A DNA stretch of 36,796 bases from a virus (lineage: Duplodnaviria; Heunggongvirae; Uroviricota; Caudoviricetes). The stretch is taken from IMG/VR virus record IMGVR_UViG_2537562172_000001, positions 1 through 36,796 of that record; one strand, given 5' to 3'. The number at the start of each line of letters is the position of its first letter. The first letter of the stretch is position 1. Position numbers and translations under genes: made by a program. The notes beneath the pieces are model-generated. The model searched no databases. It was not told the origin of the DNA and saw only the letters and a program-made list of their open reading frames with translations. This document shows positions 354-31,872 of the stretch, piece after piece.

Positions 354-433
354 CATGTCTGTGAGATAGGGTGCCTTATCGACCTTACCCTGGCAACCGA
401 TTGACGGGGGATTGCTCCCCCGTCGCGGTTTCC

Positions 434-574
434 TTACTGCTTACACTGTAAGAACGCCGCAAACTCCGCTCCCCAGAAGCTCATCCGTATTTCACACAGC
501 GAACCGTGCAGCATCCAGATGATGAGGATTGCCGTCACGCAGAACGTGATGGTCGTAAGCGATTTTTGCGACAT
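434..574 (-). CDS. Hok/Gef-family type I toxin-like small membrane protein (46 aa)
   Basis: Hand translation of the minus strand gives MSQKSLTTITFCVTAILIIWMLHGSLCEIRMSFWGAEFAAFLQCKQ: one hydrophobic helix, then SLCEIR and E-x-AAF with the same spacing as R1 Hok (KSLCEIRYRDGHREVAAF). Under 60 aa, so absent from the ORF track. Confidence 0.6.
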   Translation of the reverse strand: MSQKSLTTITFCVTAILIIWMLHGSLCEIRMSFWGAEFAAFLQCKQ

Positions 575-704
575 AGCACTTGCTCCTTTTTCGGAGAGGT
601 GCTAACCTTTCACTTGTCAAGGTAATGCGGTTAGGGCCTCGGTTAAACAGGGATGTTTTCCGGGGCCTTTCCACATCTGGCCTTCGGGTATTCCCTCCGA
701 CCAT
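492..704 (-). CDS. mok-like overlapping reading frame upstream of and overlapping the hok-like gene
   Basis: 70-aa ORF in a different frame that overlaps the 5' part of the hok-like gene, as mok does in hok/sok loci. Product is basic and low-complexity; assignment is by position only. Confidence 0.3.
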   Translation of the reverse strand: MVGGNTRRPDVERPRKTSLFNRGPNRITLTSERLAPLRKRSKCYVAKIAYDHHVLRDGNPHHLDAARFAV

Positions 705-764
705 CAGCCGAAAGGCACCCGCGCGTAATCTATCGCTTTTTTGTTACTCCGGCAATTCTGCCTG

Positions 765-1025
765 TTAATTCTGAGATAAAGGTAAACTCATCTGATTGTT
801 TCCCCTGTGTGAAGCTGGCAGATCATGCCACGGGATACCTTCTGAAGAGTGAACGCCGGAGGCGTGTTTCGATGTGAATTTATGGAAAGCTTCCAGTGTT
901 GAGAAGCATACGCCGCATTCCAGGTTGTTACACTGGTAATACTTTTGCCGCACGGTGTTTGAATCATTTTCCGGACGACTGGTGCGGATACGGGCAGATG
1001 CGCCACAAAGCGGACAACGGAACAT
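765..1025 (-). CDS. ogr: Ogr-type zinc-finger late transcription activator
   Basis: N-terminus MFRCPLCGASARIRTSR...YYQCNNLECGVCF matches the P2 Ogr C4 zinc-finger pattern (MFHCPLC...HQCQNVNC). Lies directly downstream of D as in P2. Confidence 0.8.
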   Translation of the reverse strand: MFRCPLCGASARIRTSRPENDSNTVRQKYYQCNNLECGVCFSTLEAFHKFTSKHASGVHSSEGIPWHDLPASHRGNNQMSLPLSQN

Positions 1026-1067
1026 AGCGACCTCCCTTAACGTGGTGCTGCCGCTATTCTAAGTTGC

Positions 1068-2177
1068 TCACTCTGTTTCCGCTATCCATTCCGGGATTTT
1101 TGCCTCAAGCTCAAGCTGCGTGGTAAAGCCGCTGTTATCAATGGTGTGCTCGGCTTTTGCAATAATCCAGTCCTGATTATCAATCTCGCTTTTAAATCCT
1201 GTTACCGTGCCATGCATTTCGGGGTAGAGTTCTGCGCGTCCACGTGCCAGCGTGATGGAAAATGATGCGGCTCCGCGTTGTAGCTGCTGCCACTTTGCCG
1301 CCGCTGCGCGTCTTGCTGCCTGCTCGTTCTGATAAGTTTTGCGTAACACAAATACGTTGCCTTCCGCACCTTCCATATAGTCACCTTCGCGGCTGCTGCT
1401 TTTCTCCTTTTTGGGTTTTGGCGGTTTGCGGCGTTTCACGCTGACTTTTTTCTTTTTCCCGTAATTAAGATCAAGCCAGTAGGCGCGTACACCCGTATAC
1501 GCCTCGCGGTCAGCAATGCGGAACTGATGGCGATCTCCGCTGCTGCGTGTGATGGCAAACGATGGCAACGGCTGGCCCTGCGCGTTCACGCCACCGCCGG
1601 GCATGATGAATAACAGATTACCGCTTTTTACCGTGGTGATTGCGCCCAGCATTTCCGCCATGCGCGTAAGGAAGGACATATCACTTTCTTCGGTCTGGTC
1701 GGCGTGGTCGATTTCAATATCCATCAGCATTTCGCTGATTTGCGGTTTCAGGCCGTATCGGTGAGCAATTGCAGACACCACGCGTTCAACGGTCACATCA
1801 TGCCAGGATACTTCGCGCTTGACGTTAAATTCATCCCGAAAATCTGCGCTTCTGGCTGAAATGGTCAGTCTGTCGGGCGGTCCTTCATGAGCAATTTCAT
1901 CAACAATGTAAGTGCCTTTTTCTGTCAGCGGTTCGCCTTTCCAGCCAATGAGAACCGTCAGGCGCGCGCCCCGTGGCGGTAGCTGCAACTGACCATCCGC
2001 ATCATCCAGCGTGATGGTGAGCTGGTCTGCCTCAAATCCCCGGTTGTCGGTCAGTGACAGGCTCATCAGGCGCTCTGCCACGCCTGACAGCGTTTTACCC
2101 TCCGCGAGAATATCAAAATCCGGCATTTTCACGGGGTCTGTGCCCTGACTGAGCAATTGCATGGTGGTATCGGTCAT
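1068..2177 (-). CDS. D: Tail protein D (late control D family)
   Basis: Long ORF 1068..2309. Likely start is the ATG at 2177..2175 (MTDTTMQLL...), preceded by AGGGAGGG at SD spacing. Size and position (next to ogr) fit P2 gpD. Confidence 0.85.
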   Translation of the reverse strand: MTDTTMQLLSQGTDPVKMPDFDILAEGKTLSGVAERLMSLSLTDNRGFEADQLTITLDDADGQLQLPPRGARLTVLIGWKGEPLTEKGTYIVDEIAHEGPPDRLTISARSADFRDEFNVKREVSWHDVTVERVVSAIAHRYGLKPQISEMLMDIEIDHADQTEESDMSFLTRMAEMLGAITTVKSGNLLFIMPGGGVNAQGQPLPSFAITRSSGDRHQFRIADREAYTGVRAYWLDLNYGKKKKVSVKRRKPPKPKKEKSSSREGDYMEGAEGNVFVLRKTYQNEQAARRAAAAKWQQLQRGAASFSITLARGRAELYPEMHGTVTGFKSEIDNQDWIIAKAEHTIDNSGFTTQLELEAKIPEWIAETE

Positions 2178-2334
2178 CTGTTCCCTCCCTGTGCGGCATG
2201 GTCGCATGTGCGTGCGGAAGGGGTTACTGCTTTTTGTTGTCGCCGGGTCGGGAGAACGGCGCAGGGGTGAGATTACGCGCGTGGTGGGTGATGATTGTTG
2301 CCGAATCATTTAACGGATACAAGGGGCTGAAGCT

Positions 2335-3519
2335 ATGAGTGAAACTCGTTTTCATGGTGCCCGTGTTACGGAAAATACCGACCTGGTAACAGCGATTAAC
2401 GATGTTGATTCCAGTGTTATCGGTATCGTGGCAACGGCGGATGATGCGGACGCGGAGCTGTTCCCGCTGAACAAGCCCACACTGCTGACCCGCGTCAATG
2501 ACGTGCTGGGAAAATGCGGAACAACGGGGACGCTTTATCGTGCGCTTAAGGCCATCGCAGACCAGGTGAGCACAAAGGTGATCGTCGTTCGCGTGGCTGA
2601 ACACAAAGAAGAAGACGGAAAAACGCAGGATCAACTGGTTATCGGTGGTTCTGAATCTGACGGCAGCTATACGGGGATGTATGCGCTGCTTGTTGCAGAG
2701 CAGGATGAAAGCATCGGATACCGTCCGCGTATTCTGGCCGCGCCGGAGCTGGACACGGAGGCGGTAACAAAATCCCTGTGCGTGATTGCGGGTAAACTGC
2801 GCGCGTTTGTGTATGCCTCATGTCACGGCTGTAACACGATGGCTGAGGCGATTACCTACCGCCAGAAATTCAACGAACGTGAGGTGATGCTCTTATGGCC
2901 GGACTTCATCGCCTACAACCCGAAAAGTGGCAAAAACGAAACGTTCCCCGCGCCTGCTTATGCGTGCGGCCTTCGTGCGTACATTGACCATGAGCAGGGC
3001 TGGCACAAATCGCTGTCCAACGTTCCGGTTAAAAATGTGCTGGGAATGTCCAGGCATGTGTTCTGGTCGTTGCAGGCCGAAGACAGCGATGCCAACAGCC
3101 TCAATAACAAAGAAATCACGACCATTATTCGTCGCAACGGGTTCCGCTTCTGGGGCAACCGCACACCGGAAACGAACGCCTACATCTTTGAGGTGTATAC
3201 CCGAACCGCACAGGTGCTGGCTGATTCAATTGCGGAAGCGCAGTTTGAAACCATCGACAGTCCACTGACGCCTGCGAACGTGAAGGATGTTATCAGTGCC
3301 ATCAGGGCAAAACTGGATTCGCTGGTTACTGCCGGGAAACTGATTGGTGCGGAGTGCTGGTATGACGTGGTGGATAACGGCACCACGAATTTACGTCAGG
3401 GACGTGTGCGTATTCGCTACAAATATACGCCCGTTCCGCCACTGGAAGACATGGAGCTTTACCAGACGTTTACTGATGAATTCTTTGGTCCCGCATTTGC
3501 GGTGCTGGGAGGTGCCTGA
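2335..3519 (+). CDS. FI: Contractile tail sheath protein
   Basis: 394 aa. Motifs LIRRNGFRFWGNRT and YKYTPVPPLE resemble P2 FI (LIRRDGFRFWGNRT, YDYTPVPPLE). Followed immediately by the tube gene. Confidence 0.9.
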   Translation: MSETRFHGARVTENTDLVTAINDVDSSVIGIVATADDADAELFPLNKPTLLTRVNDVLGKCGTTGTLYRALKAIADQVSTKVIVVRVAEHKEEDGKTQDQLVIGGSESDGSYTGMYALLVAEQDESIGYRPRILAAPELDTEAVTKSLCVIAGKLRAFVYASCHGCNTMAEAITYRQKFNEREVMLLWPDFIAYNPKSGKNETFPAPAYACGLRAYIDHEQGWHKSLSNVPVKNVLGMSRHVFWSLQAEDSDANSLNNKEITTIIRRNGFRFWGNRTPETNAYIFEVYTRTAQVLADSIAEAQFETIDSPLTPANVKDVISAIRAKLDSLVTAGKLIGAECWYDVVDNGTTNLRQGRVRIRYKYTPVPPLEDMELYQTFTDEFFGPAFAVLGGA

Positions 3520-4031
3520 TGGCTGTACCAAAACATCTTCGCTTTTTTACGTTGTTTGTGGATGGTGAAAACGAAGTGGGTAAAGTGACATCCGTCACGC
3601 CGCCCAAACTGACGCGCAAAACCGACAGCTATCGTGGTGGTGGCATGATGGGGGCGGTAAGTATTGATCTCGGTCTGGACGACTCCGCGCTTGATGCGAG
3701 TTTTGTTATGGGGGGAGCTGTTCGTGCGCTGTTCCTTAAATATGGCGGCACGATTGACGGCACGCTGCTGCGTTTTGCGGGTGAATACTACACCGATGCA
3801 GAAAGCGATCTGTATGAAATCGAGATGCGCGGGCGTGTGACGGAAATTGATATGGGGGAAGCCAAACAGGGCGAAGCCACATCACACACTTACGCTGTCA
3901 AAAACACCTACTACAAGCTGAGCGTTAACGATCGCCCGCTGTGGGAAATCGACCTGTTGAACCACATCTACCGGAAGGACGGCAAGGACATTGTTCCTGA
4001 CCGTATCCGTTCCGCGCTTGGGCTTGGCTGA
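3519..4031 (+). CDS. FII: Tail tube protein
   Basis: 170 aa, directly after the sheath gene with overlapping stop/start (TGATG). Size and position match P2 FII. Confidence 0.88.
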   Translation: MAVPKHLRFFTLFVDGENEVGKVTSVTPPKLTRKTDSYRGGGMMGAVSIDLGLDDSALDASFVMGGAVRALFLKYGGTIDGTLLRFAGEYYTDAESDLYEIEMRGRVTEIDMGEAKQGEATSHTYAVKNTYYKLSVNDRPLWEIDLLNHIYRKDGKDIVPDRIRSALGLG

Positions 4032-4086
4032 TAAGTAATATGCAGGCGGCGCAGTGCGTCGCCTCTGACTGAAAAGGAGAAAACTG

Positions 4087-4461
4087 ATGAAAGACATCGA
4101 TACTGAAACCCGGAATAACACCGTGGTGGATGATGTGACGGCAGGTGAGGATATGGCTGTCGAACGTGGCGTAAAACTGACCCGACCAATTGAGCGTGGT
4201 GGCGAAAAAATCACGTATGTGGAGATCACCGGGGCTATTGAACAGGCTGGATCCCTGCGTGGTCTGTCGCTGTCTGATGTGCTGAATCTGAAAGCGGATA
4301 CCATGTTCACGCTGTTGCCTCGCGTGACCTCGCCACGACTGGATGAAGTGATGATTAAAAAAATGTCGTCACGCGATTTTATTCAGTTGTGCGCTGTGGC
4401 TGTAAATTTTATGAGCGAGCCAGACTCTGGCGCGAAGAGCGTGCAGGAGACGGCAGCGTAA
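4087..4461 (+). CDS. E: Tail assembly chaperone E
   Basis: 124-aa acidic ORF between the tube and tape-measure genes, overlapped at its 3' end by a -1 frame ORF, which is the E/E' arrangement. Confidence 0.75.
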   Translation: MKDIDTETRNNTVVDDVTAGEDMAVERGVKLTRPIERGGEKITYVEITGAIEQAGSLRGLSLSDVLNLKADTMFTLLPRVTSPRLDEVMIKKMSSRDFIQLCAVAVNFMSEPDSGAKSVQETAA

Positions 4462-4625
4462 TCACCCTGGTGTGCTTTGAGCACATCGAAGATCTGGTGG
4501 CAGATATCGCCGCCATTTTTAACTGGTCGCCCGCCGAAATCTTCATGATGACGCCCGGCGAAGTGGTTAGCTGGCGTGAGCGGGCGGCACTTCGCAGCGG
4601 GAATGCAGACAATGAAGACTCTTGA
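4389..4625 (+). CDS. E' extension frame, expected to be expressed as an E+E' fusion by -1 programmed frameshift
   Basis: ORF in the -1 frame relative to E, overlapping E 4389..4461. Candidate slippery heptamer A_AAT_TTT at about 4404..4410 in the E frame. Ends with its stop overlapping the T start region. Confidence 0.55.
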   Translation: MRCGCKFYERARLWREERAGDGSVITLVCFEHIEDLVADIAAIFNWSPAEIFMMTPGEVVSWRERAALRSGNADNEDS

Positions 4626-7419
4626 TATCCGGGTCGCTTTCAGCGCCGTTGACAGACTGACCCGGCCTGCCGAAAACGCCCGCCGCCTGATGGGGCAGTT
4701 TGGTGACTCCATCCAGCGAACGCAGGGGGCGATCAAAAATCTCGAGCGTCAGGCGCGATCATTTGAGCGCGCCCGCGACGCTGTCAGTAAAGCGGATGCG
4801 GGCATCGTGAAAGCACGACGCCAGCTTAACGCCCTTAATCAGTTACAACGCACGGGTACAGTGCTCAGCGAAAAACAACAAAAACTGATGCAGCAGTTAA
4901 GCACCCGGCTTGAACGCCTGAATGAATCGCGTACACGGGAAATTCAGAAAATGCGGGAGCTTGGCGGAGAGCTGAAACGCCACGGCATTTCCCTGACAGG
5001 CAGCGATAACACCATCCAGCAGGCCATCAGACGCACCGAACAGTACAACAACCAGCTTGAACGCGAACGGCAGGCGCTTGCGCGTGTAACGCGGGCGCGT
5101 GAGCGGTATTCGCGCGCGCAGGAAACCGCGGGAAAACTGAAAACAGGTGGTGCGCTGGCAATTGGTGCGGCAGCGGCTGGCGGCTATGCTGCCGGGCGTT
5201 TTTTGCAGCCTGCGATCGGGTTCGGGAAAGAGATGTCCCGCGTTCAGGCACTGACGCGAATCGACAAAAACAGCCCGCAGTTTAAGGCGCTGCGTGAGCA
5301 GGCGTTAAAACTTGGCTCTGAAACGCAGTTCACCGCTGGAGATGCCGCCAGTGGACAGGCATTTCTTGCAATGGCGGGCTTCACACCGCAGGCCATTCAG
5401 GCTGCGCTTCCGGGCGTGCTGAGCATGGCAACGGCTGGCGGTATGGATCTCGGCGAGACGGCGGATATTGGCTCAAATATCCTGACGCAGTTCGGCCTTT
5501 CTGCTGACCAGATGGACCGGGTTGGCGACACGCTCACCGCAGCGTTTACCCGTACCAACACTGACCTTCGCGCACTGGGCGAAACCATGAAATATGCAGG
5601 TCCGGTGGCGGGTAAGCTGGGAATATCGCTGGAGCAGGCCGCAGCGATGGCGGGCGTGCTGGCGAATATGGGTATCAGAGGGAGTGATGCCGGGACGGCA
5701 ATGCGTGCCAGCCTGTCCCGCCTGGTAACACAGCCAAAGGCAACCGCTGATGCTCTGAAAGAGCTGGGGGTGGCTGTCTCTGATGCGAACGGCAAAATGC
5801 GCCCGATGGAGGATGTGCTGGCCGACCTTTATAAAGCCACCCGCAAATACGGGGAAGTTGACCGGGTATCCTTCTTTAAGGACATCGCCGGAGAAGAGGC
5901 TTTCACGTCATTTATGGCCCTCGTTGATGCGGCGGGTAACGGCTCCTTACCCAAACTGAGAAAAGAACTTGAGGGCGCACGCGGTGAGGCTGAACGCACG
6001 GCAAAGGTTATGGCCGACAACCTTGATGGCGACCTGAAATCACTCGGCAGTGCATGGGAAGGGTTGCGCATCCGCATTGCAGATCTGATTGACGGTCCGC
6101 TGCGTTCTGTCACGCAGTGGCTCACGCGGGTGGTCTCAAAGGTGACTGCGCTGGCGCAGGCCCATCCGGCACTGACGCGCCAGTTACTGATAGCGGGAGG
6201 CGCACTGCTGGCGACAACAGCAACGGTTGGTTCGTTGTCGCTGGTTATTGGGGTGCTTTACGGGAAGCTTGCCACCCTGCGTCTTGGTTTTGACATTCTT
6301 ACCCGGTCAATGAATGTCGTCAGGGTGTTGCCTGCGCTGTGGGGAATGGTGACGGGTTCCGTTTCTTTGCTGGGAGGCGCTATCGGGGCGCTGTTCAGTC
6401 CGGTTGGTCTTGTCGTGGCTGCGCTTGCCGGAGCTGCTGTTCTTATCTGGAAATACTGGGATCCCATCAGGGCATTTTTTGCCGGGGTGTTCAGCGGGAT
6501 TATGGAAAGGCTGACCCCGTTGCGCGAAACCTTTGAACGGTTTGGTCCTGTTTTTGACGCAATCGGAAGCGGGATCAGCCAGGTGTTTAACTGGTTTAAA
6601 TCGCTGTTGTCACCGATGGAGTCCAGCAAGGAAACGCTGGATAAATGTACCAGTGCTGGCGAGATATTCGGTAACGTTCTTGGTGGTGCGTTACAACTTG
6701 TTCTGACACCTGCAAAAATGCTACTGGATACGCTGGCGTGGATACTTGAAAAACTTGGCGTCCTTCCGGATGAAGCGGAAAGGGCGCGCAAGAAAATCGA
6801 AGACGCACAGCGTGCGGCCATTCTTCAGGACAAGGTTGCCTTACTTCAGGGGGACCTGGCGAAAATCAATCCGCCGAAGCCTGTGGAAAATGGCAATGGC
6901 ACCGGAGGTGATAAACCCAAAGACAACAAACCGCTTACAGACAGCAATACCGGGACGCTACGCAGACTCAGCAAAATTGCTGATAACACAGGTAAGCTGG
7001 TTGATGAGACGAAAAAACGCATTGGCCCCGGCGATATTGTCTTTAAGAACCTGCCCCGCGCACTTGCTGTTCGTGGGGAGTGGCAGGAGCGGAAGATTGC
7101 GCAGGTCAGTAAGCCTGCCCCCGCAATTAATATCACACCCGTGGTCCCGGCTCCGCTGCCTCCGGCGCTGGTCCCTGTTGTTGCGGCCAGCTCCCGCCCG
7201 GTGGCGGAGGCCATACGATCTCCAGTGGCATCAGTTCCTGTAACTTCCCGTAACCGGGAGCCTGTTGCCTCCGGATTTGGTGGTGAAATTCATGTTCATC
7301 TGCATAACGTTGTTACGCAGAATCCCCGCGAACTGGCGAAACTGGTCGGTGAAATGGTCAGGGCAGAAATGGAACGGCGCGCCCGTGCCGGACGTGGCAG
7401 TTTTTACGATAAAGATTGA
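4576..7419 (+). CDS. T: Tail tape measure protein
   Basis: 947-aa ORF with coiled-coil-rich N-terminal half and Gly/Ala-rich hydrophobic central segments; sits between E/E' and U. True start may be the ATG at 4603 or 4612 rather than the GTG at 4576. Confidence 0.9.
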   Translation: MSGRHFAAGMQTMKTLDIRVAFSAVDRLTRPAENARRLMGQFGDSIQRTQGAIKNLERQARSFERARDAVSKADAGIVKARRQLNALNQLQRTGTVLSEKQQKLMQQLSTRLERLNESRTREIQKMRELGGELKRHGISLTGSDNTIQQAIRRTEQYNNQLERERQALARVTRARERYSRAQETAGKLKTGGALAIGAAAAGGYAAGRFLQPAIGFGKEMSRVQALTRIDKNSPQFKALREQALKLGSETQFTAGDAASGQAFLAMAGFTPQAIQAALPGVLSMATAGGMDLGETADIGSNILTQFGLSADQMDRVGDTLTAAFTRTNTDLRALGETMKYAGPVAGKLGISLEQAAAMAGVLANMGIRGSDAGTAMRASLSRLVTQPKATADALKELGVAVSDANGKMRPMEDVLADLYKATRKYGEVDRVSFFKDIAGEEAFTSFMALVDAAGNGSLPKLRKELEGARGEAERTAKVMADNLDGDLKSLGSAWEGLRIRIADLIDGPLRSVTQWLTRVVSKVTALAQAHPALTRQLLIAGGALLATTATVGSLSLVIGVLYGKLATLRLGFDILTRSMNVVRVLPALWGMVTGSVSLLGGAIGALFSPVGLVVAALAGAAVLIWKYWDPIRAFFAGVFSGIMERLTPLRETFERFGPVFDAIGSGISQVFNWFKSLLSPMESSKETLDKCTSAGEIFGNVLGGALQLVLTPAKMLLDTLAWILEKLGVLPDEAERARKKIEDAQRAAILQDKVALLQGDLAKINPPKPVENGNGTGGDKPKDNKPLTDSNTGTLRRLSKIADNTGKLVDETKKRIGPGDIVFKNLPRALAVRGEWQERKIAQVSKPAPAINITPVVPAPLPPALVPVVAASSRPVAEAIRSPVASVPVTSRNREPVASGFGGEIHVHLHNVVTQNPRELAKLVGEMVRAEMERRARAGRGSFYDKD

Positions 7420-7425
7420 GGAGTC

Positions 7426-7920
7426 ATGGCCATGATGATGATCTACGGCATGTTTGTTTTTGAGCTGCGCACATTGCCGCATCAGCAGTTACAGCAAAAC
7501 AAAAGCTGGCGGCATGTGAAAAATGAACGCGTTAACCGCTCAGCAAGCTGGCAGTATATCGGTGCAGGTGATGATCGCATCGTGCTTTCCGGCGTGCTTT
7601 ATCCTGAAATTACAGGTGGCGAAGTGTCGCTTTCGTTGCTGACCACGCAGGCGTATACAGGACGCCCCTGGCCTCTGATTGATGGTGTCGGGCAGATTTA
7701 CGGCATGTATGTACTGACTGAAACGAATACGACCCGCTCCGAGTTTGATCGCTACGGTAAGGCGAAAAAGATAGAATTTTCACTGACCCTTGAACGCTGT
7801 GATGAGGATTTGCGGGAGCGCCTGCAATCCTCATCGTTCAGCGATATGCTGTCCGGCTTCAAAGATAAGGTGACATCATCTCTTAACAGCGCGGCCAGTT
7901 CAGTTAAAGGGCTGTTCTGA
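7426..7920 (+). CDS. U: Tail protein U
   Basis: 164-aa ORF immediately after the tape measure gene; size and position match P2 gpU. Confidence 0.8.
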   Translation: MAMMMIYGMFVFELRTLPHQQLQQNKSWRHVKNERVNRSASWQYIGAGDDRIVLSGVLYPEITGGEVSLSLLTTQAYTGRPWPLIDGVGQIYGMYVLTETNTTRSEFDRYGKAKKIEFSLTLERCDEDLRERLQSSSFSDMLSGFKDKVTSSLNSAASSVKGLF

Positions 7921-7931
7921 TTTAACACAAA

Positions 7932-7967
7932 AACCGCTAATGGTCAGATTAGCGGTTATTTTGTTTT
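7932..7967. terminator. Bidirectional rho-independent terminator between the tail operon and the invertase gene
   Basis: Stem aaccgctaat / attagcggtt with 6-nt loop, then ATTTTGTTTT on the plus strand and an A-rich run upstream (T-run for the minus strand). The invertase stop lies in the hairpin. Confidence 0.6.
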
Positions 7968-8543
7968 CTGACTCTTCTCTATTGTTCCGCTTGATTCTCC
8001 TGCGGGGTGGTAACGATAAATCGTCGATGTACCAATGCCGTAAATTATTGCCAGTTGTTTTCTGTCGTGACCGTTTTTAATCAGCCTTGCTATTTGCTCA
8101 TGCTGTTCTTTTGTCAGCTTCGGGCGACGTCCGCCTGTGCGCCCCCGTGCGCGCGCTGCTGCCAGTCCGGCCAGTGTACGTTCAACAATTAATTCACGTT
8201 CCATTTCAGCCAGGGCACCCATCACGTGGAAGAAAAAACGCCCCATTGGAGAAGATGTATCTATGCTGTCGGTCAGACTGCGAAAATTAATCCCTCGCTC
8301 CCGTAGTTCCCCGACGAGAGAAATCAGATGTTTCATGCTTCGCCCGAGGCGATCCAGTTTCCAGACAACCAGCGTGTCACCTTTTTGAAGGCGCTTTAAA
8401 GCGCGTTTTAATCCCGGTCGGTCTGTCTTTGTCCCGCTTAATTTATCTTCAAATATTTGTTCACATCCTGCACAAACAAGAGCGTTTCGTTGCAGGTCTG
8501 TATTCTGGTCATTTGTTGATACCCTTACATAGCCAATCAGCAC
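7956..8543 (-). CDS. Serine-recombinase DNA invertase (Gin/Pin/Cin/Hin family)
   Basis: Translation contains LIGYVRVSTNDQNTDLQ (catalytic Ser region) and a C-terminal HTH (GIGTSTIYRY) typical of DNA invertases. Probable GTG start at 8543 with GGGAGA at SD spacing. Adjacent to a gix-like site. Confidence 0.9.
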   Translation of the reverse strand: MLIGYVRVSTNDQNTDLQRNALVCAGCEQIFEDKLSGTKTDRPGLKRALKRLQKGDTLVVWKLDRLGRSMKHLISLVGELRERGINFRSLTDSIDTSSPMGRFFFHVMGALAEMERELIVERTLAGLAAARARGRTGGRRPKLTKEQHEQIARLIKNGHDRKQLAIIYGIGTSTIYRYHPAGESSGTIEKSQKTK

Positions 8544-8597
8544 GCTGAATCTCCCGTCCAAAAGCGTAAATCATGCCATGCAGGTCAGAAACGGCCA

Positions 8598-8627
8598 TTA
8601 TCTAAAACCTCGGTTTACAGGAAACGG
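8598..8627. repeat. gix/cix-like inversion crossover site (right inverted repeat)
   Basis: ttatctaaaacctcggtttacaggaaacgg resembles the Gin/Cin recombination-site consensus, and is a near-perfect inverted copy of the site at 11665..11691. Confidence 0.7.
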
Positions 8628-9628
8628 TAAATCAGGCTTCTGGCGCATTACAGAAAAAACAGAACGGCGCAGATATTCCCGATAAAAAACTATTCCTGCG
8701 TAATATCGGCACAACAAATTCAACAACCATGTCTTTTAGTGGTGGTGCTGGATGGTTCAAACTGGCAACTGTAACAATGCCACAAGCCAGTTCCGTGGTT
8801 TACATAAGCCTGATTGGTGGCGCAGGGTATAACGTTGGCTCCTCGCATCAAGCAGGCATCTCTGAGCTGGTTCTGCGTGCCGGAAATGGGAATCCAAAAG
8901 GTATTACTGGTGCATTATGGCGACGGACATCGTTTGGATTTACTAATTTTGCATGGGTGAATACATCCGGTAATACCTATGATGTTTATGTTGAAATAGG
9001 TAATTACGCCACAGGTGTTAATATTCAGTGGGATTATACCAGTAACGCCAGCGTAACGATTCATACATCACCAACTTATACAGCGAATAAACCAACAGGC
9101 CTGACAGATGGAACTGTATATGTAATTTACAGTTCGCACATTAAACCGACTGCTGCTGAGGTTGGGGCGTTGTCATTATCTGGCGGTCAATTGAATGGTG
9201 CACTGGGCATCGGAACATCCAGTGCTCTTGGTGGTAACTCGATTGTTTTGGGTGATAATGACACGGGATTTAAACAAAATGGCGACGGGCATCTGGATGT
9301 TTATGCGAATAACGTCCATGTTATGCGCTTTGTCTCCGGCAGTATTCAAAGTAATAAAACCATAAATATTACGGGGCGTGTTAATCCCACAGATTACGGT
9401 AACTTTGATTCCCGCTATGTCCGGGATATCCGGCTTGGTGGTGCTGCCACATACAAACCTGCGAACAATGGCATGACATGGACACATCAGGCACCGTCCG
9501 GGTGTGTATATTCCGGCATTATTGTTCAGGATACCGGCTCAAACTCTGCCGATAACATTGGTGGCGTATATTACAGGCCGGTTCAGAAATACATTAACGG
9601 GACATGGTATAACGTGGCACAGGTATAA
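8628..9628 (+). CDS. Silent alternative tail-fibre C-terminal cassette (promoterless; fused to H constant region after inversion)
   Basis: Frame is open from the crossover site (ORF track starts at the ATG at 8729). The first residues after the site ([17 protein letters not shown]) parallel H after its crossover site, and the C-terminus ...[12 protein letters not shown] parallels the H end ...[12 protein letters not shown]. Confidence 0.7.
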
Positions 9629-9631
9629 TTT

Positions 9632-10159
9632 ATGCAGCATTTGATAAATATAACAGCGGGTAATCCAAAAACGGTTGAACAATATCAATTGACAAAGGGT
9701 TTTGATGTTGTCTGGTTTTTTTCAGAAGATGGTAAGAACTGGTACGAAGAACAAAAGTATTTTGCTGATGACACGATAAAAATAGCGTACGACAAAGATA
9801 ATATTATCCGCTATGTGGAAAAGGATGTGACAGCTATCAGACCAGATGGATTAAGTGTTGTTGAAGTGCCAGATATTACTGCTAACCGACGGGCGGACAT
9901 TTCAGGGAACTGGATGTTTAAGGACGGCACAGTGATTAAACGAATTTATACGGCGGAGGAATTGCAGCAGCAGGCAGAAAATCGGAAAGCCAGACTTCTT
10001 GCAGATGCTGAATCCGTGATTTTGCCGCTGGAGCGTGCTGTCAGGCTGAATATGGCAACAGATGAGGAGCGTAGCCGACTGGATGCATGGGAACGCTACA
10101 GCGTTCTGGTCAGTCGTGTGGATACGGCAAATCCTGAATGGCCACAAAAGCCTGAATAA
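9632..10159 (+). CDS. Tail fibre assembly protein, alternative copy (G')
   Basis: 175 aa. N-terminus [24 protein letters not shown] is nearly identical to that of the convergent G copy, with a divergent C-terminal half, the usual pattern for paired fibre chaperones in invertible segments. Confidence 0.8.
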
Positions 10160-10164
10160 AAATT

Positions 10165-10190
10165 AAGGCCCGATAGCGGGCCTTGTTTCA
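10165..10190. terminator. Hairpin between the convergent tail-fibre assembly genes
   Basis: Stem aaggcccg / cgggcctt with short loop and flanking T/A-rich runs on both strands. Confidence 0.45.
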
Positions 10191-10721
10191 TTCTGGTTGT
10201 TCTGGAAACGTTACTGGCAGGCTGGAGGTGTCTGTGGATTCGACCTTCTGCGCATAGAGCATCCACTCGGTTAATTTTTGTTTATTCTCGTCGGAAATGA
10301 TGCCCAGCCGTAGCTGTGAGTCCCATAGCTGGGTTTTATCCCTGACAAGTTGCAACAGGCTTTGCTTTTCATTCTCTGCCTGCTGCCTCTGTTCCTCCTC
10401 GGTATAAGTTCGCTTTATCACTACGCCATCTTTGAACATCCATTTCCCCGAAATATCAGCCCGGCGATTTGCTGTAATATCAGGCAACTCAACGACACTT
10501 AAACCTTCTGGATTAATTGCCGATACATCTTTATCCATAGCAACAATTATTCCCTCTACAGTGTAAGCCAGTTTTATTGTATCTTTCTGAAAGTTTTTCA
10601 CTTCCTCATACCAGTTTTTTCCGTCTTCGGACCATAACCAGATAACATTAAAATTCTTTGTTAGCTGATATTGTTCAACGGTTTTTGGATTACCTGCGAC
10701 AATGTTTTTTAAATGCTGCAT
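10188..10721 (-). CDS. G: Tail fibre assembly protein (expressed copy)
   Basis: 177 aa, directly downstream of H in the same orientation. N-terminus [24 protein letters not shown]. Confidence 0.85.
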
Positions 10722-10723
10722 GA

Positions 10724-13075
10724 TTATACCTGCGATACGTTATACCATGTTCCGTTAATTAACTTTTGTATTGGTCTGAATACTGCCGGATCATCGCCAT
10801 CAACTTCACCGACAATGCCAAGCCCCGTAATTGCATGACCTGACTTTTCATACATCACGCCTTTTTGCATAGTCTGAACAACACGTGTGCCCAGTCGAAT
10901 ATCTCGTACATAGCGAGAATCTGATTCGGCTTTGGTATATGCACCAACATCTCCTGCTGATGGCTTGCGTGTTGTGGTATAAAACTCTGACCAGTCAGCC
11001 TCAAATCCATAACCATCACGCGCTGAACGATAAAAAATACCGCCGTTCCTGTAATTCACGCGGAACTGTACAGCAGGGCAGCTCCCCGTATTCATATTGA
11101 AGTGGAGGATTAATGTCGATGCGCCACTAATGTTTGCGTTATAGACCCCGCTATTCCAGTTCCAGCCAACAGCTTTATCATTTCCGACAGTGCTTCCTGT
11201 TCGCCCTAAAGCAAATGCAGGTTGTTGATTTTTCGTGTTGTAGTCTCGTCGCCAGCCAGGAGCGTAAGCATCACCATGATTGATATAAGTGAATTGAGCG
11301 TTAGTAATTCCGTCACCGCTGGACGTGCTCGGCGTGGTAACGCGTATGGTCATTGCGCCGCGAGTGCCAATAACTTCCACCACAGCACCTGCAAGACAAA
11401 TATTTCCGCAACCTGTATCTGTAATGACCTTATTATTTGCATAAGCCCATGAGCCTTTGCACATCCAGTAAGGATGGTTAAATGCCCCCTGACTCTCCAG
11501 CCACGAAATAAATTGCGCGGTTGTCCAGACCTGATTATCGCCACCAATATCCAGCCATGCGCTATATGCGCGGCAGGCCCCAATATTTTTGGTGAAGGTA
11601 TCTTTTCCTGGAATATCTGCGCCGTTCTGGTTTTTCTGTAATGCGCCAGAAGCCTGATTTACCGTTTTCTGTAAACCGAGGTATTCGATAACGGCGGCAA
11701 CGGTAGATTTCGCAAGAATATCCCGCCCGACTTTTGTCAGAGTTGCCAGGCTGGCGACATCATTCCCCGTAAAATACGGAAACCTGTCTGCCGCAGTATC
11801 AAGCCCGGCCAGCGCCGTCAGGGTGGCATCTTTCGGTTGCTTACCCGCAAGCGCGTTAGTCATGGTGGTCGCAAAATTCGGGTCGTTTCCCAGCGCCGCC
11901 GCTAACTCGTTCAGCGTATTCAGTGCGTCAGGTGACGAATCTACAAGGGCGGCAATCGCAGCCATAACGAAAGCCGTGCTTGCGATTTGGGTATTATTCG
12001 TTCCCTGTCGCGCAGTTGGCGTTGTTGGCGTTCCGGTCAGCGCAGGACTGTTTAAGGGCGCTTTCTTGTTCGTTTCATCCATTACCACCTTAACCGCTTT
12101 CGATGTCGCGGCCAGTGTTTCAGACGTGCTGTTGGTGGCACTACTGAGCTGGACTATCCCTTTTTGTGCCGTCGTGGCGTCCTGAGCGGTATATTTTGCG
12201 TTAGCAAGGTCATACGCGGCCTTTACTGCTTTCGGCGTTGCAGCCTGCGTTTCAGACGTGCTGTTGGTGGCACTACTGAGCTGGACAAGACCTTTTCGCG
12301 CTGTAGTGGCGTCCTGTGCGGTATATTTCCCGTTAGCAAGGTCATAGGCTGCCTTGACCGCTTTCGGCGTTGCGGCCAGTGCTTCAGACGTGCTGTTGGT
12401 GGCGCTACTGAGCTGGACAAGACCTTTTCGCGCTGTAGTGGCGTCCTGTGCGGTATATTTCCCGTTAGCAAGGTCATAGGCTGCCTTGACCGCTTTCGGC
12501 GTTGCGGCCAGTGCTTCAGACGTGCTGTTGGTGGCGCTACTGAGTTGAACAAAGCCTTTTGCGGTCAGCGAGGCGTCCGGGTGACGTCGTGACTGTTCGT
12601 GCTCTGAGATTTTGTCATCCACATATTTGCGGGTTGCCAGAACCACAGACGGGTCGATTTTCAGCGTGATGGCTTCGGTGTTCGTGACAACCAGAATCAT
12701 GCGGATAGTCTGGGTGCGTCCACTGCCTTCCTGCAACTGCGGTTTGTACGTTTCCGGGCAGTTCGCCACCGCAATGAGTACGCCTTCATCATCATAAAGC
12801 CCAATCTCACGGATCCAGAATCCTCCCTCGTTTTCAGGGATAATTTGCTCCGCAATAATCTGGCTCTGATTGTTAGGGTCAACGCTCAGAAGATTCAGCG
12901 GTGCAATGCGTTTCTGGTTAATCAGTTTTGTCTGTGCCGGGTCTGGTGTCGGTAATACACCATTCGCATCACCAACGGCCATTTGCGTCAGATTCAGCTT
13001 ACTGCCGAGCATCGTCGCGTTAGCCAGTCGTGCCGCGCCCTGATTAGTCAGAATGGCGTAGTATTTCACTGTCAT
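10724..13075 (-). CDS. H: Tail fibre protein (constant N-terminal part plus currently expressed variable C-terminal part)
   Basis: 783 aa with internal ~45-aa tandem repeats ([42 protein letters not shown]) and a gix-like site inside the gene at about 11665..11691. C-terminus ...[11 protein letters not shown]. Confidence 0.9.
11665..11691. repeat. gix/cix-like inversion crossover site (left inverted repeat, inside H)
   Basis: ttttctgtaaaccgaggtattcgataa; its reverse complement ttatcgaatacctcggtttacagaaaa matches the 8598..8627 site at most positions. Confidence 0.7.
12105..12580. repeat. In-frame tandem repeats (~135 bp unit, about 3.5 copies) within the constant part of H
   Basis: Near-identical 135-bp units are visible directly in the sequence, for example two adjacent copies starting near 12247 and 12382. 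Confidence 0.7.
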
Positions 13076-16593: not shown

Positions 16594-16870
16594 GGTTGTT
16601 GTCCTCGTTGTTCAGTCGTTGCAGCCTGCGCTGTTCCAGTAATTCAATGGCCCGTTTATCCGCGTTACAGGTTTCCAGTGCATCCAGAAGGCGGTCGCCC
16701 CATATACCGAGATTTCCCCATGTGGGAGTGTCAGGGAAGGGGGGAGGCGTTACCGGTATGGTCAGCGTCTGCGGTATAAGCCGGACTGACGGCGCTGGCA
16801 GTGGCGCGTTCTGCGTGCCTGCGCAACCTGTCAGTAAAACGAGCGTCAGGCAAAGCGTGGGCGCATTCAT
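16580..16870 (-). CDS. Rz1-like outer-membrane lipoprotein spanin component (LysC-like)
   Basis: From the internal Met: MNAPTLCLTLVLLTGCAG carries a lipobox (LTGC), followed by a Pro-rich segment. Encoded in a different frame overlapping the 3' end of the Rz-like gene and the 5' end of R, as P2 lysC does. Confidence 0.65.
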   Translation of the reverse strand: MNAPTLCLTLVLLTGCAGTQNAPLPAPSVRLIPQTLTIPVTPPPFPDTPTWGNLGIWGDRLLDALETCNADKRAIELLEQRRLQRLNNEDNNHAEN

Positions 16871-17138
16871 CTTTTGCAATATCGTTGCGTAGCTGTTCAC
16901 GTCTGGCCTCTCCGTCCTGATTTCTCTGTTGATTTTCCACGCGGAGTTGCGCCAGCACCTGCTGCATATCCTGTACCCCGGTGCTGATGATATTCAGGGT
17001 GTCGACGGTACTTTTCAGGGCGCTGGCCTGCGCTTCGTTTCTGGCGTTCTCCCGGCCCAGCGACCACGACAGACGCATGGATGTTCCCCATGCGGCAATC
17101 AGAAGGAAAGCGACGCCCAGCGTGGGCCAGAGCTTCAT
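16731..17138 (-). CDS. Rz-like inner-membrane spanin component (LysB-like)
   Basis: From the internal Met at 17138 (MKLWPTLGVAFLLIAAWG...): N-terminal TM helix then coiled-coil-like region. Start overlaps the endolysin stop. Confidence 0.65.
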   Translation of the reverse strand: MKLWPTLGVAFLLIAAWGTSMRLSWSLGRENARNEAQASALKSTVDTLNIISTGVQDMQQVLAQLRVENQQRNQDGEARREQLRNDIAKDECAHALPDARFTDRLRRHAERATASAVSPAYTADADHTGNASPLP

Positions 17139-17527
17139 GCCGGATAGGCTCCGTGTGGTAACTGAAAATGCGGTCCGTCTTTCAGGGTCTTCCAGTCGCC
17201 GCCCCATTCCACCGGAATATTCAGTTCCCGGCTGGCCTGTCTGAATGCTGCTGCGATTTTTTCGTACAGCGGCCATTCCCATGACACCTGGCTGCCGATA
17301 TAAGCCACAACATCCACGGCATGCCCCGTAAGGTGGCGGCTGTTCATGGTCTGGCTCTTACCCGTGGCCACCAGTTGCTTCTGGCGGTAACGGCTGCGCA
17401 CCCCTTCGGTGATACCAAAATCCACTTCCGAGATTTCCAGTGCCCGTCGGGTCACTTTCACCAGATCAGGATTTACGCCCTGCAAATTCTTTTCGCTCCG
17501 GCTGCTGAATTTAAATGTGTTGCTCAT
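17135..17527 (-). CDS. Endolysin, peptidase M15 (L-alanyl-D-glutamate / D-Ala-D-Ala peptidase-like)
   Basis: 130 aa containing SRHLTGHAVDV (His/Asp zinc-binding pattern of M15 peptidases). Lies between the holin and spanin genes. Confidence 0.75.
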   Translation of the reverse strand: MSNTFKFSSRSEKNLQGVNPDLVKVTRRALEISEVDFGITEGVRSRYRQKQLVATGKSQTMNSRHLTGHAVDVVAYIGSQVSWEWPLYEKIAAAFRQASRELNIPVEWGGDWKTLKDGPHFQLPHGAYPA

Positions 17528-20567: not shown

Positions 20568-21404
20568 TCAGAAGTCAGCCAGTTGGTCGGAGGCTGCGCC
20601 CGTTGCGGTGAACCGGTTCTGCGGATCGCCGTCCTGCGTGCGCAGTTTTTCCTTCAGTGCTGTCAGCTCTGTGGTCAGTGAAATGATTTTCTGACGGTCC
20701 TGCTTATGGCGGGCTTCCAGTGCATTAAAACGGTCGATAATGTCGGCCTGTGACGTTGCGACGCCTTCCACCGCTTCCTGAATGCGGGAAAAACTGGTGT
20801 CATCCGCTTTGCGGCCACGGCTAATAATTCCCATTACGCGGTTAAACCACTGGGTGCCTTCTTCCTGGCGTTGTTCTGCCATTTCGATGATTTCAGACTC
20901 GATGGCTTCGGAGATAAGCGGTGCTTCACCCTGGGCACTGTTAAACGTCATCACCGCCTGACGTTGCTGTGCCGTGAATTTCAGGCGCTCAGTGCCCAGG
21001 CTTGCCGGGGTGTCGGTCATCGCCAGCCCGACCAGATAGGCGCGCCCGTTGACGGAGAACTGCGGGTGCAGTTCGATACTGGAATAGATTTTCTTGCCGT
21101 CAGCGACAAGCTGCTTCATGCGCTCGGTCGGTTCGATTTCTGCATACAGCGCAGTACGCCCGGCCAGCGTACCTTCCGTAATGTCTTCCGTACTCAGTGC
21201 GGTGACATCGCCCATTGCGGAAAATTCGCTTGACGGGCATGGCGAGAGATAGTGCTCAACGTTCACGCGGGCAGCGTAAACATCCGGATCGAAGTTCTCA
21301 GCAGCTTCACGCAGATGCACCGGACTGATTTCGCGGCCATCAACAGTTGATCCGGAGACAGCCACGCGAAACTTTTTGCGGGATGTCTTTTTTTCATTAG
21401 CCAT
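20568..21404 (-). CDS. O: Capsid scaffolding protein
   Basis: ORF 20568..21437. Likely start is the ATG at 21404 (MANEKKTSRKKFRVAVSGSTVDGREI...), preceded by GAGGGG and paralleling the P2 gpO N-terminus. Confidence 0.85.
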   Translation of the reverse strand: MANEKKTSRKKFRVAVSGSTVDGREISPVHLREAAENFDPDVYAARVNVEHYLSPCPSSEFSAMGDVTALSTEDITEGTLAGRTALYAEIEPTERMKQLVADGKKIYSSIELHPQFSVNGRAYLVGLAMTDTPASLGTERLKFTAQQRQAVMTFNSAQGEAPLISEAIESEIIEMAEQRQEEGTQWFNRVMGIISRGRKADDTSFSRIQEAVEGVATSQADIIDRFNALEARHKQDRQKIISLTTELTALKEKLRTQDGDPQNRFTATGAASDQLADF

Positions 21405-21558
21405 AGTTTTTGCCCCTCTGACTGGTTCTTCAGTCATGATGGCAAAGCGTAACAGGCTGATACAAAGGGCTTTTGTTGTAAGAAAACGACCAGAACAGGG
21501 GGTTAAGGAGAACGGTTTCGCGCGCGGGTAATCTTCCTGTAATTACTCAGGGGGAGCA
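21405..21558. promoter_or_regulatory. Divergent late promoter region (O-operon and P/Q-operon promoters expected)
   Basis: Intergenic region between divergent O and P, as in P2 where Ogr-dependent promoters lie. No exact TGT-N12-ACA box found by eye. Confidence 0.4.
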
Positions 21559-31505: not shown

Positions 31506-31684
31506 GGTGTGGCCTCTCTGTTAGTTAGTTTTGAAAACTCACCATCCAGAGGTTCCAAGCTCGGGGTGGTGAGACGTACAGGGTTGGAACTACCGGCTAA
31601 CAGAGGACCCGGCCCAGCTGATGCTGGCCCTGTACGCCCCACCATAATTCTGACGCGAAAAAGACGTGGCGATACGGTACGCAC

Positions 31685-31704
31685 AAAAAAACCGCTGGCG
31701 CGGT
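31685..31704 (-). terminator. Intrinsic terminator (minus strand) downstream of the SPFH module, inside the early operon
   Basis: On the minus strand: AACCGC-gcca-GCGGTT followed by a run of about 6-8 T. Confidence 0.5.
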
Positions 31705-31872
31705 TGTGCGCTCTGTTAGTCTGCGGGGTTCCAATCCCGGCACCCGTTTTATGAGGTGCAGCGGGAATGTAACCTGACTGATTGCGGCATGGCAAGCGGT
31801 TTTTTTGTGAGAACGGCATACTAAAAAATCCTGATACTGCTCCGGCCAGCGGTTTTCACTGGCCGGATTTAA

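What the first reader, a model, noticed from the sequence alone, without database searches (positions are those of the whole stretch)
2178..7955. Tail sheath-to-U block is inverted relative to D/ogr and the fibre genes compared with P2 synteny
In P2, FI-FII-E-T-U-D form one operon in the same orientation as H-G and ogr. Here D and ogr are on the minus strand, but FI through U are on the plus strand. That leaves D divergent from FI across only about 157 bp and U convergent with the invertase gene at a shared terminator. This is either a lineage-specific architecture or a 5.6-kb inversion or assembly artefact. I found no convincing inverted repeats or gix-like sites at the two junctions by eye.
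Basis: partly seen in the sequence, partly recalled or inferred. Interest (0 to 1): 0.6.

Follow-up and report, generated by a model that had tools for sequence, protein, structure and literature searches.

The report
Fixed ancient inversion of tail operon
The flipped tail sheath-to-U gene block is real, but it is the normal inherited gene order of a large group of P2-like prophages (P88-like and relatives), not an assembly error or a DNA switch, and a single activator site between D and the sheath gene probably drives both.

Summary
In this P88-like (Xuanwuvirus) prophage, FI-FII-E-T-U (2335-7920, +) is inverted relative to D/ogr (765-2177, -) and the fibre/baseplate genes. D and FI are divergent across 157 bp, and U converges on a gin-like invertase at a two-way terminator.

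It is not an artefact or a switch. Thirteen phage records are colinear across it, and 1,356 complete E. coli genomes carry the D/FI junction intact. None of 1,416 carries a P2-type U|D junction. The junctions have no inverted repeats or gix sites.

The same order occurs in 66 of 66 fetched relatives whose D protein is at least 59% identical to this one. These span five ICTV genera plus KSP20 and more than 25 host genera. All 21 relatives at 54% identity or less, including distant outgroups, keep the P2 order. The inverted loci are monophyletic for D, FI, FII and U. I read this as one old inversion, fixed in a clade.

The gap holds one TGT-N12-A(C/G)A late-promoter box (2238-2255). Minus-10-like hexamers sit 35 nt from it on both sides, matching P2's annotated single-site pP/pO pair. 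I infer that the block carried pF with it and that D gained a mirror-image Ogr-dependent promoter.

This is ordinary architecture for the lineage, so interest is low to moderate.

The parts
765..1025 (-). ogr, the late-gene activator (Ogr/Delta C4 zinc finger). It stays co-directional with D.
   Evidence: Pfam PF04606, 52.4 bits. The translation shows C4-X2-C7-X24-C32-X4-C37.
1056..1061 (-). Candidate -10 (TAGAAT) of ogr's own promoter, in the 42-bp D-ogr gap.
   Evidence: Read from the sequence. Many clade members have CTGACT-N17-TA(A/G)AAT at the same place. P2 has an annotated -35/-10 in its D-ogr gap.
1068..2177 (-). D (tail/baseplate hub protein). It was left behind by the inversion and is now divergent from FI.
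   Evidence: PHROG 52 and Pfam Phage_GPD. It is 99% identical to P88 D. The start at 2177 has a GGGAGGG ribosome site.
2178..2334 (.). 157-bp D-FI intergenic region, inferred to be a bidirectional late promoter.
2198..2206 (-). Predicted extended -10 of a D promoter (TGcGACCAT). The hexamer lies 35-40 nt from the box edge, and the predicted start site is about 2189-2191.
   Evidence: An nAnnnT hexamer sits at offset 35 in 91% of 58 distinct clade gaps, preceded by TG in 62%. The geometry equals that of P2 pP/pO.
2238..2255 (.). Single Ogr-type activator box TGTCGCCGGGTCGGGAGA (TGT-N12-AGA), centre 2246.5.
   Evidence: A box is conserved at the same position in 60 of 66 relatives. The extended motif TTGTTGT-N12-AGAAC recurs in the O/P gap.
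2290..2295 (+). Predicted -10 (GATGAT) of the FI promoter (pF equivalent). The predicted start site is about 2302-2304.
   Evidence: A hexamer sits at offset 35 in 98% of 58 distinct gaps. The distance from box centre to the FI ATG is 88.5 nt, against 82.5 in P2.
2335..3519 (+). FI, the tail sheath gene.
   Evidence: PHROG 23 and Pfam sheath domains.
3519..4031 (+). FII, the tail tube gene. PHROGs labels it 'head closure'.
   Evidence: PHROG 55. The equivalent gene is annotated as major tail tube protein in relatives.
4087..4461 (+). E, the tail assembly chaperone. The E' frameshift extension follows, as annotated in P88.
   Evidence: PHROG 103. The P88 annotation shows E and E'.
4576..7419 (+). 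T, the tape measure gene. These are mechanical ORF limits, and the true start may lie a few codons downstream.
   Evidence: PHROG 28. P88 annotation.
7426..7920 (+). U, the last gene of the inverted block.
   Evidence: Pfam PF06995, 133 bits.
7932..7957 (.). Two-way intrinsic terminator shared by U (+) and the invertase gene (-).
   Evidence: Relatives mostly have some hairpin after U, but its sequence is not conserved.
7956..8561 (-). Gin/Hin-type serine invertase. It is context only: it serves the fibre segment, not the FI-U block.
   Evidence: Pfam Resolvase plus HTH_7. It is 92-96% identical at the nucleotide level to Mu/D108 gin. The gix cores lie at 8605 and 11673.

Best explanation
The window is a P88-like (Xuanwuvirus) P2-family prophage. 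In an ancestor of a large enterobacterial sub-clade of Peduoviridae, the segment [pF promoter + FI-FII-E-T-U] was inverted in place. One breakpoint lay between the fibre module and the pF activator box, and the other at the U/D boundary. The arrangement has been inherited ever since and is not flipping today; this part is shown. The rest is inferred. The block took its Ogr-dependent pF promoter with it, and the dyad-like activator box now sits in the middle of the 157-bp D-FI gap. D, cut off from the F operon, is transcribed from a mirror-image promoter on the other side of the same box. That promoter has an extended -10 at the same 35-nt distance and a predicted start site near 2190. The gap would then work like P2's own pP/pO pair, where one activator site serves two divergent late promoters. 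ogr keeps its own small promoter and would also receive read-through from the D promoter. FI-U transcription ends at the two-way terminator at 7932-7957, head-on with the invertase gene.
For: Natural and fixed: 13 phage records align colinearly over 700-8700. The D/FI junction is contiguous in 1,356 complete E. coli genomes. A synthetic P2-type U|D junction is contiguous in 0 of 1,416.

Clade-wide: 66 of 66 fetched loci with D at least 58.6% identical are inverted, and all 18 (later 21) loci at 53.8% or less are canonical. The annotated phages SEN4, phiT5282H and KSP20, plus 3LV2017-type and Reipivirus Klebsiella phages, share the inverted order. The inverted loci are monophyletic in NJ trees of D, FI, FII and U.

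Polarity: P2, SEN8, YenM56.17, Burkholderia AP3, a Mannheimia phage and a Pseudomonas phage are all canonical.

Promoter: 60 of 66 relatives have one TGT-N12-A(C/G)A box, centred 77.5-88.5 nt from the FI ATG (P2: 82.5) and mostly 66.5-82.5 nt from the D ATG. An nAnnnT hexamer sits exactly 35 nt from the box edge in 98% of gaps on the FI side and 91% on the D side, and in 26% or fewer at any other offset. The surrounding sequence is otherwise diverged, and the distances from hexamer to ATG vary.

Precedent: the P2 reference record annotates a single 'activator binding site; pO, pP promoters', with mapped start sites 47 nt from each box edge and hexamers at offsets 35-40.
Against: No transcript data were available, so the start sites, the Ogr dependence of the D promoter and Ogr binding are all inferred. 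The window's box has AGA rather than the classical ACA. The predicted D leader is only about 12-16 nt. The TG extension could make the D promoter activator-independent. Six of the 66 relatives lack a recognisable box at the expected place by my regular expression. D start codons in the relatives were chosen by rule and by eye. Only the best 80 of 502 genome hits were examined, so the clade boundary and possible independent inversions elsewhere are not mapped. The J (baseplate) tree does not separate the two groups, so mosaicism exists outside the D/FI-U region.
Confidence: 0.85

Rival explanations
1. D is transcribed from an Ogr-independent, constitutive or early extended -10 promoter, or only from some other upstream signal. 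On this reading the central box serves FI alone.
For: The D-side element has a TG extension in 62% of gaps, and extended -10 promoters can work without an activator (established knowledge). The D side also has a conserved CG-rich stretch that is absent from the FI side.
Against: The spacing from box to hexamer is invariant on the D side (offset 35 in 91%), while the distance from hexamer to ATG drifts. The geometry matches the experimentally mapped two-way pP/pO site of P2. D is a late structural gene in P2.
Confidence: 0.25
2. The arrangement arose by horizontal replacement rather than in-situ inversion. A foreign FI-U cassette with its promoter would have recombined in backwards.
For: P2-like phages are mosaic. 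The J tree is not congruent with the split, and the U-distal junction is variable.
Against: D, FI, FII and U give the same clean split, and their identities track each other: FI is at least 54% identical in inverted loci and at most 49% in canonical ones, and U is at least 51% against at most 49%. No donor lineage with a closer FI-U block was seen among the canonical phages.
Confidence: 0.08
3. The block is an active invertible segment flipped by the neighbouring Gin-like invertase, acting as a tail on/off switch.
For: An invertase gene abuts the block.
Against: There are no gix cores or inverted repeats at 2178-2334 or 7921-7955. None of 1,416 E. coli genomes has the other orientation. 57 of the 66 inverted relatives lack an invertase. 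The real gix pair brackets the fibre segment at 8605 and 11673.
Confidence: 0.01
4. The inverted order is an assembly artefact in this window.
For: None beyond the unusual order.
Against: The junctions are identical in independently sequenced phages and in 1,356 complete genomes. The arrangement was already present in the KSP20 Sanger-era fragment.
Confidence: 0.01

Closest known systems
Phage P2 F operon (pF: FI-FII-E-E'-T-U-D, then ogr), reference record NC_001895
   Same: The genes and their internal order are the same. An Ogr-type box lies about 83-88 nt upstream of the FI ATG. ogr lies downstream of D with its own small promoter.
   Different: Here FI-U with its promoter is inverted, so D is no longer the last gene of the F operon. 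D is divergent from FI, and FI-U converges on the fibre/invertase module.
Phage P2 pP/pO divergent late promoters sharing one activator binding site
   Same: A single TGT-N12-xxA box sits in a gap of about 120-170 bp. nAnnnT hexamers lie 35-40 nt from each box edge, and the start sites (mapped in P2, predicted here) lie about 47 nt from each edge. The window's own O/P gap has the same layout.
   Different: In P2 this design is used once, for the head genes. In this clade a second copy of the design appears at D/FI, apparently created by the inversion. The start sites here are not mapped.
Xuanwuvirus (Escherichia phage P88, Citrobacter phage phiSM/Shae_phiSM, P884B11)
   Same: The window is 96-97% identical at the nucleotide level and colinear over 700-8700. 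The rest of the window is about 96% identical over about 75% of its length. The junctions are identical.
   Different: Only cargo and fibre regions differ. The papers on P88 and phiSM that I could search do not comment on the inversion.
Mu G segment / Gin-gix invertible fibre cassette
   Same: The window has a Gin-like invertase 92-96% identical to Mu/D108 gin. It also has a segment of about 3.1 kb between gix cores that carries alternative fibre ends and chaperones.
   Different: That switch is adjacent to the FI-U block but does not include it. The block has no gix sites and shows no orientation polymorphism.

Membership tests
P2-like phage (Peduoviridae) tail and late-control module | Homologues of gpFI, FII, E, T, U and D and of the Ogr/Delta activator | tested here: met
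   PHROG and Pfam hits for every gene.
P2-like phage (Peduoviridae) tail and late-control module | Canonical F operon: FI through D co-directional, downstream of the fibre genes | tested here: not met
   FI-U is on the plus strand, while D, ogr, H and G are on the minus strand. P2 reference order.
Genus Xuanwuvirus (P88-like) | High nucleotide identity and colinearity with P88 over most of the genome (ICTV genus criterion of about 70%, from my own knowledge) | tested here: met
   95.9% identity over 100% of 700-8700. 96.3% identity over 75% of 8700-33600.
Clade with inverted FI-U (Xuanwuvirus, Novemvirus, Reginaelenavirus, Reipivirus, Senquatrovirus, KSP20) | D divergent from FI across a gap of about 150-165 bp that holds one central TGT-N12-A(C/G)A box | tested here: met
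   The window gap is 157 bp with the box at 2238-2255. The same layout is found in 60 of 66 relatives.
Ogr/Delta-activated P2 late promoter | TGT-N12-ACA-type dyad centred about 55 nt upstream of the start site, with a weak -10 and no -35 | tested here: inconclusive
   The box (TGT-N12-AGA, one mismatch) and the -10-like hexamers are at P2-equivalent distances. The start site itself is not mapped.
Ogr/Delta-activated P2 late promoter | Transcription depends on Ogr binding to the box | not testable with these tools
   This needs reporter or footprint experiments.
Gin/Hin-type invertible DNA segment (considered for the FI-U block) | Inverted gix/hix crossover sites at both ends | tested here: not met
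   There is no AAACCNNGGTTT-type core (one mismatch or fewer) near either junction and no flanking inverted repeats.
Gin/Hin-type invertible DNA segment (considered for the FI-U block) | Both orientations found among otherwise identical genomes | tested here: not met
   1,356 E. coli genomes have the observed junction and 0 of 1,416 have the alternative.

The most novel reading that the evidence does not exclude
The inversion did more than reorder genes. It turned pF into a second pP/pO-type two-way late promoter, in which one Ogr site fires FI-U one way and D-ogr the other. That would uncouple the low-copy hub protein D from the high-copy sheath and tube genes. It would also place ogr directly downstream of an Ogr-activated promoter of its own, giving a tighter positive-feedback loop than in P2. 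The design has been conserved across at least five phage genera.
Probability: 0.55. Interest if true: 0.35.

Novelty: new member of a known kind. Interest (0 to 1): 0.25.

Why it matters
The main value is as a caution. Deviation from P2 synteny here is a lineage marker, not an error or a mobile switch. The junction occurs in about a quarter of complete E. coli genomes (1,380 of 5,426), so annotators and prophage callers will meet it constantly.

The inversion is a clean, easily scored rare genomic change. It unites Xuanwuvirus, Novemvirus, Reginaelenavirus, Reipivirus, Senquatrovirus and KSP20-like prophages against the other Peduoviridae sampled, which is useful for classification.

Mechanistically, it offers a natural experiment on how an operon survives being cut in two. 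The dyad-like activator site allowed a new divergent promoter to form for the stranded gene D. This can be tested directly with the inducible phages P88 and phiSM.

Tried and rejected
1. Inverted repeats between the two junctions. Only short, low-identity pairs inside coding sequence were found, so I rejected this.

2. Secondary gix sites. None were found.

3. An exact TGT-N12-ACA search of the window. It gave 5 hits, all elsewhere and at chance level. The functional box has AGA and was recognised only through the extended motif shared with the O/P gap and through conservation in relatives.

4. The generic sigma-70 scan. It found nothing useful in the gap, as expected for activator-dependent promoters.

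5. A third copy of the box at 17046-17069 (-). I considered it as a pV equivalent, but its -10 is not at the standard offset, so I left it as an aside.

6. Small ORFs annotated across the gap in P88 (gp50), SEN4 (SEN4_27) and RefSeq E. coli. They lie on different strands in different records, and gap lengths differ by non-multiples of three, so I treated them as annotation noise.

7. A strict terminator rule downstream of U. It flagged only 21 of 64 relatives. Most have some hairpin, but the sequence is not conserved, so I make no claim of a conserved terminator.

8. Literature searches. I found no paper that discusses the inversion. The P88, SEN4, phiSM and PP4 papers contain none of the words for inversion, orientation or synteny in this context. 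The library lacks most subscription-journal papers, so the inversion may well have been described elsewhere.
Full report
**What the window is**

The ORF map and family scans show a complete P2-family prophage.
- ogr lies at 765-1025(-) and D at 1068-2177(-).
- FI (2335-3519), FII, E, T and U (7426-7920) are on the plus strand.
- A Gin-type invertase lies at 7956-8561(-), followed by an invertible fibre segment.
- G, H, I, J, W, V and the head and lysis genes follow on the minus strand.
- P and Q are on the plus strand, followed by the replication genes and the integrase.

Over 700-8700 the window is 96-97% identical and colinear, in one piece, with Citrobacter phage Shae_phiSM, Escherichia phage P88 and Xuanwuvirus P884B11. 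The rest of the window is about 96% identical to P88 over about 75% of its length. It is therefore a member of the genus Xuanwuvirus.

**Checking the observation**

- D's real start is the ATG at 2177, which has a GGGAGGG ribosome site and matches the P88 annotation. The D-FI gap is therefore 2178-2334, or 157 bp.
- A 10-bp-stem hairpin at 7932-7957 has T-runs on both strands. It folds at -16.9 kcal/mol with z = -3.8. It sits between the U stop and the invertase stop.
- The P2 reference record confirms that in P2 FI, FII, E, E', T, U and D form one annotated operon, co-directional with V-G and ogr.
- A computational repeat search found no inverted repeats linking the two junctions.
- gix-type cores occur only at 8605-8616 and 11673-11684, the ends of the fibre segment.

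**Not an artefact and not a switch**

Thirteen phage records cover at least 80% of 700-8700 in a single colinear place. The multi-piece cases are IS100 insertions. A 1-kb probe across the D/FI junction is contiguous in 1,356 of the 1,380 complete E. coli genomes that contain it.

I also built the junction that a P2-type order would create, joining the U 3' end to the D 5' end. Both halves occur in 1,416 genomes, but never together in one place. The orientation is therefore fixed.

**How far the arrangement extends**

By tblastn, D has 530 matching phage records: 13 at 90% identity or more, 36 at 60-80%, and then a gap from 63.3% down to 53.2%.

Annotated or re-analysed representatives with the same order (fibre genes, then U-T-E-FII-FI reversed, then D-ogr) are:
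- Salmonella phage SEN4 (Senquatrovirus, no invertase);
- Klebsiella Kp4871-3 (Reginaelenavirus);
- Klebsiella Kp4848-1 (Reipivirus);
- Enterobacter phiT5282H (Novemvirus);
- the Serratia KSP20 fragment.

The following keep the P2 order:
- SEN8 (Felsduovirus);
- P2;
- Yersinia YenM56.17;
- Klebsiella Kp4845-2;
- Burkholderia AP3;
- a Mannheimia Baylorvirus;
- a Pseudomonas phage.

A scan of one genome per species with a D alignment returned 80 loci. I classified all fetched loci by tblastn with the window's proteins. This gave 66 inverted loci, with D 58.6-98.9% identical to the window's, and 18 canonical loci at 46.6-53.8%. There was no overlap. Three distant outgroups added later are also canonical.

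The inverted loci come from many host genera:
- Salmonella, Citrobacter, Enterobacter, Klebsiella, Raoultella, Kosakonia, Kluyvera, Yokenella and Trabulsiella;
- Serratia, Pantoea, Erwinia, Mixta, Izhakiella, Brenneria, Pectobacterium and Symbiopectobacterium;
- Edwardsiella, Hafnia, Rouxiella, Dryocola, Yersinia, Xenorhabdus, Photorhabdus, Providencia and Morganella;
- one Aeromonas MAG.

In NJ trees the inverted loci form a single group with no canonical member inside. This holds for D (63 loci), FI (64), FII (64) and U (58). The baseplate gene J does not separate cleanly. FI and U identities also split without overlap. Only 9 of the 66 have an invertase.

The simplest reading is one inversion in the ancestor of this clade. 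It is derived relative to the P2 order seen in all outgroups, and it is unrelated to Gin.

**How late control is kept**

The window's gap contains TTGTTGT-N12-AGAAC at 2234-2257. This motif recurs exactly in the O/P gap at 21473-21496. Its core is a one-mismatch version of the P2-family late-promoter box TGT-N12-ACA. That consensus is cited in PMC3931495.

Sixty of the 66 relatives have one TGT-N12-A(C/G)A box in the gap. Its centre lies 77.5-88.5 nt from the FI ATG. In P2 pF the equivalent distance is 82.5. The centre lies 66.5-82.5 nt from the most plausible D ATG, with one exception at 55.5.

I stacked 58 distinct gaps on the box. Most flanking positions have diverged, but a -10-like hexamer (nAnnnT) starts exactly 35 nt from the box edge on both sides.
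- On the FI side the hexamer occurs in 98% of gaps (GATTAT, GAATAT, GATGAT).
- On the D side it occurs in 91% (AATCAT, AACTAT, GACCAT) and is preceded by TGn in 62%.
- At no other offset from 21 to 55 does the frequency exceed 26%.

The distance from box to hexamer is invariant while the distance from hexamer to ATG drifts. That pattern argues that both hexamers are functionally tied to the box.

The P2 reference record supplies the precedent. It annotates a single 'activator binding site; pO, pP promoters' (3057-3087), with start sites at 3016(-) and 3127(+). Reading the sequence, the box TGT-N12-CCA (3063-3080) has hexamers TAGCCT and GAAACT at offsets 35-40, and both start sites lie at offset 47. 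The D/FI gap of this clade therefore reproduces the geometry of P2's known two-way late promoter.

For the window, this predicts the following.
- The FI -10 is GATGAT at 2290-2295, with a start site near 2302-2304.
- The D extended -10 is TGcGACCAT at 2206-2198(-), with a start site near 2189-2191 and a short leader that carries the ribosome site.

In canonical relatives the sequence upstream of the pF box is unconserved, being either the G terminator or the end of the invertase gene. The D-side promoter therefore appears to be new to the inverted clade. ogr retains a -10 (TAGAAT, 1061-1056) in the D-ogr gap, and many relatives have a fuller CTGACT-N17-TA(A/G)AAT promoter at the same place. 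P2 also has an annotated promoter in its D-ogr gap.

**What is shown and what is inferred**

Shown:
- the gene order and its fixation;
- its clade-wide distribution and derived polarity;
- the conserved box and the mirrored hexamers;
- the match to P2's annotated pP/pO geometry.

Inferred:
- that Ogr binds the box here;
- that D is transcribed from the mirrored promoter in an Ogr-dependent way;
- that the event was an in-situ inversion rather than a backwards cassette replacement.

Limits:
- No transcript data were available.
- Only the best 80 of 502 genome hits were examined.
- D starts in the relatives were assigned by rule.
- The literature library is incomplete.

**Novelty and verdict**

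The arrangement has been in public records since the KSP20 fragment, and it is standard in P88, SEN4, 3LV2017-type and phiT5282H genomes. The window is thus another member of a known group. None of the papers I could search remarks on the inversion. Its status as a clade-defining rare genomic change, and the two-way D/FI promoter, may therefore be unremarked. Both are modest, unsurprising extensions of P2 biology. Interest is low to moderate, at 0.25.

Noticed in passing
window 8596-8621 and about 11664-11689 (cores 8605-8616 and 11673-11684): A Mu-G-like invertible segment of about 3.1 kb. The left site reads TTATCTAAAACCTCGGTTTACAGGAA. The segment carries an alternative fibre C-terminus and chaperone (8729-10159, +) opposite the current H end and G (10188-11672, -). 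Inverted homologous arms lie at 9574-9982 and 10371-10778.
   Followed up: partly
window 17046-17069 (-): A near-copy (20 of 24 nt, including the N12 spacer) of the D/FI activator box lies inside a spanin-like lysis ORF (16731-17282), upstream of R-S-V...G. It is also present in Shae_phiSM (L002 17563-17581). It could be an internal late promoter replacing P2's pV, but its -10 is about 2 nt off the standard offset.
   Followed up: partly
window 21404-21558 (O/P gap): There is one box (21477-21494), with TAATCT at offset 35-40 on the P side and TGcCATCAT at offset 33-41 on the O side. This fits only if O starts at the ATG at 21404 (ribosome site GAGGGG), not at the ORF-list start at 21437, which overlaps the predicted -10.
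   Followed up: partly
window 31562-31649 (-) and 31685-31759 (-): Rfam matches above the gathering score to C4 antisense RNA (78.5 bits) and isrK (72.4 bits). These are P1/P7-type immunity RNAs, found here in the early region of a P2-like prophage.
   Followed up: no
window 26975-27934 (-) and neighbours: The homologous genes in Shae_phiSM are annotated as parM and a partitioning/stability protein. Plasmid-type segregation genes in an integrating P2-like phage are worth noting.
   Followed up: no
clade D-FI gaps, about 20-31 nt from the box on the D side (window about 2207-2218): A conserved CG-rich run (CGCGCGCG) lies between the box and the D-side -10 in most relatives. A similar TTTCGCGCGCGGG lies in the window's O/P gap (21516-21528). 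Its function is unknown.
   Followed up: no
L002 (OR565851.1, Shae_phiSM) 2294-4745: The gene labels in the GenBank record are shifted by one. The D homologue is labelled 'ogr', the sheath gene is labelled 'late control gene D protein', and the real ogr (1994-2251) is unannotated. The 2019 phiSM paper describes a long non-contractile tail, although the genome encodes a sheath.
   Followed up: no
L011 (NZ_JBQPOM010000071.1, 'Vagococcus sp. WN89Y'): A 226-kb contig of a nominally Gram-positive genome carries this enterobacterial prophage, with D 98% identical to the window's. Contamination or mislabelling of the assembly is likely.
   Followed up: no
window about 433-573 (-): The equivalent stretch of P88 is annotated as a MokW-like hok/gef host-killing gene, just beyond ogr at the prophage end.
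   Followed up: no
window 7921 onward, compared with E. coli genomes: Only 622 of the 1,625 E. coli genomes that match the U/invertase probe carry the whole junction. Many match only as far as the U stop. The region distal to U is therefore a swap point for different fibre and invertase modules.
   Followed up: partly
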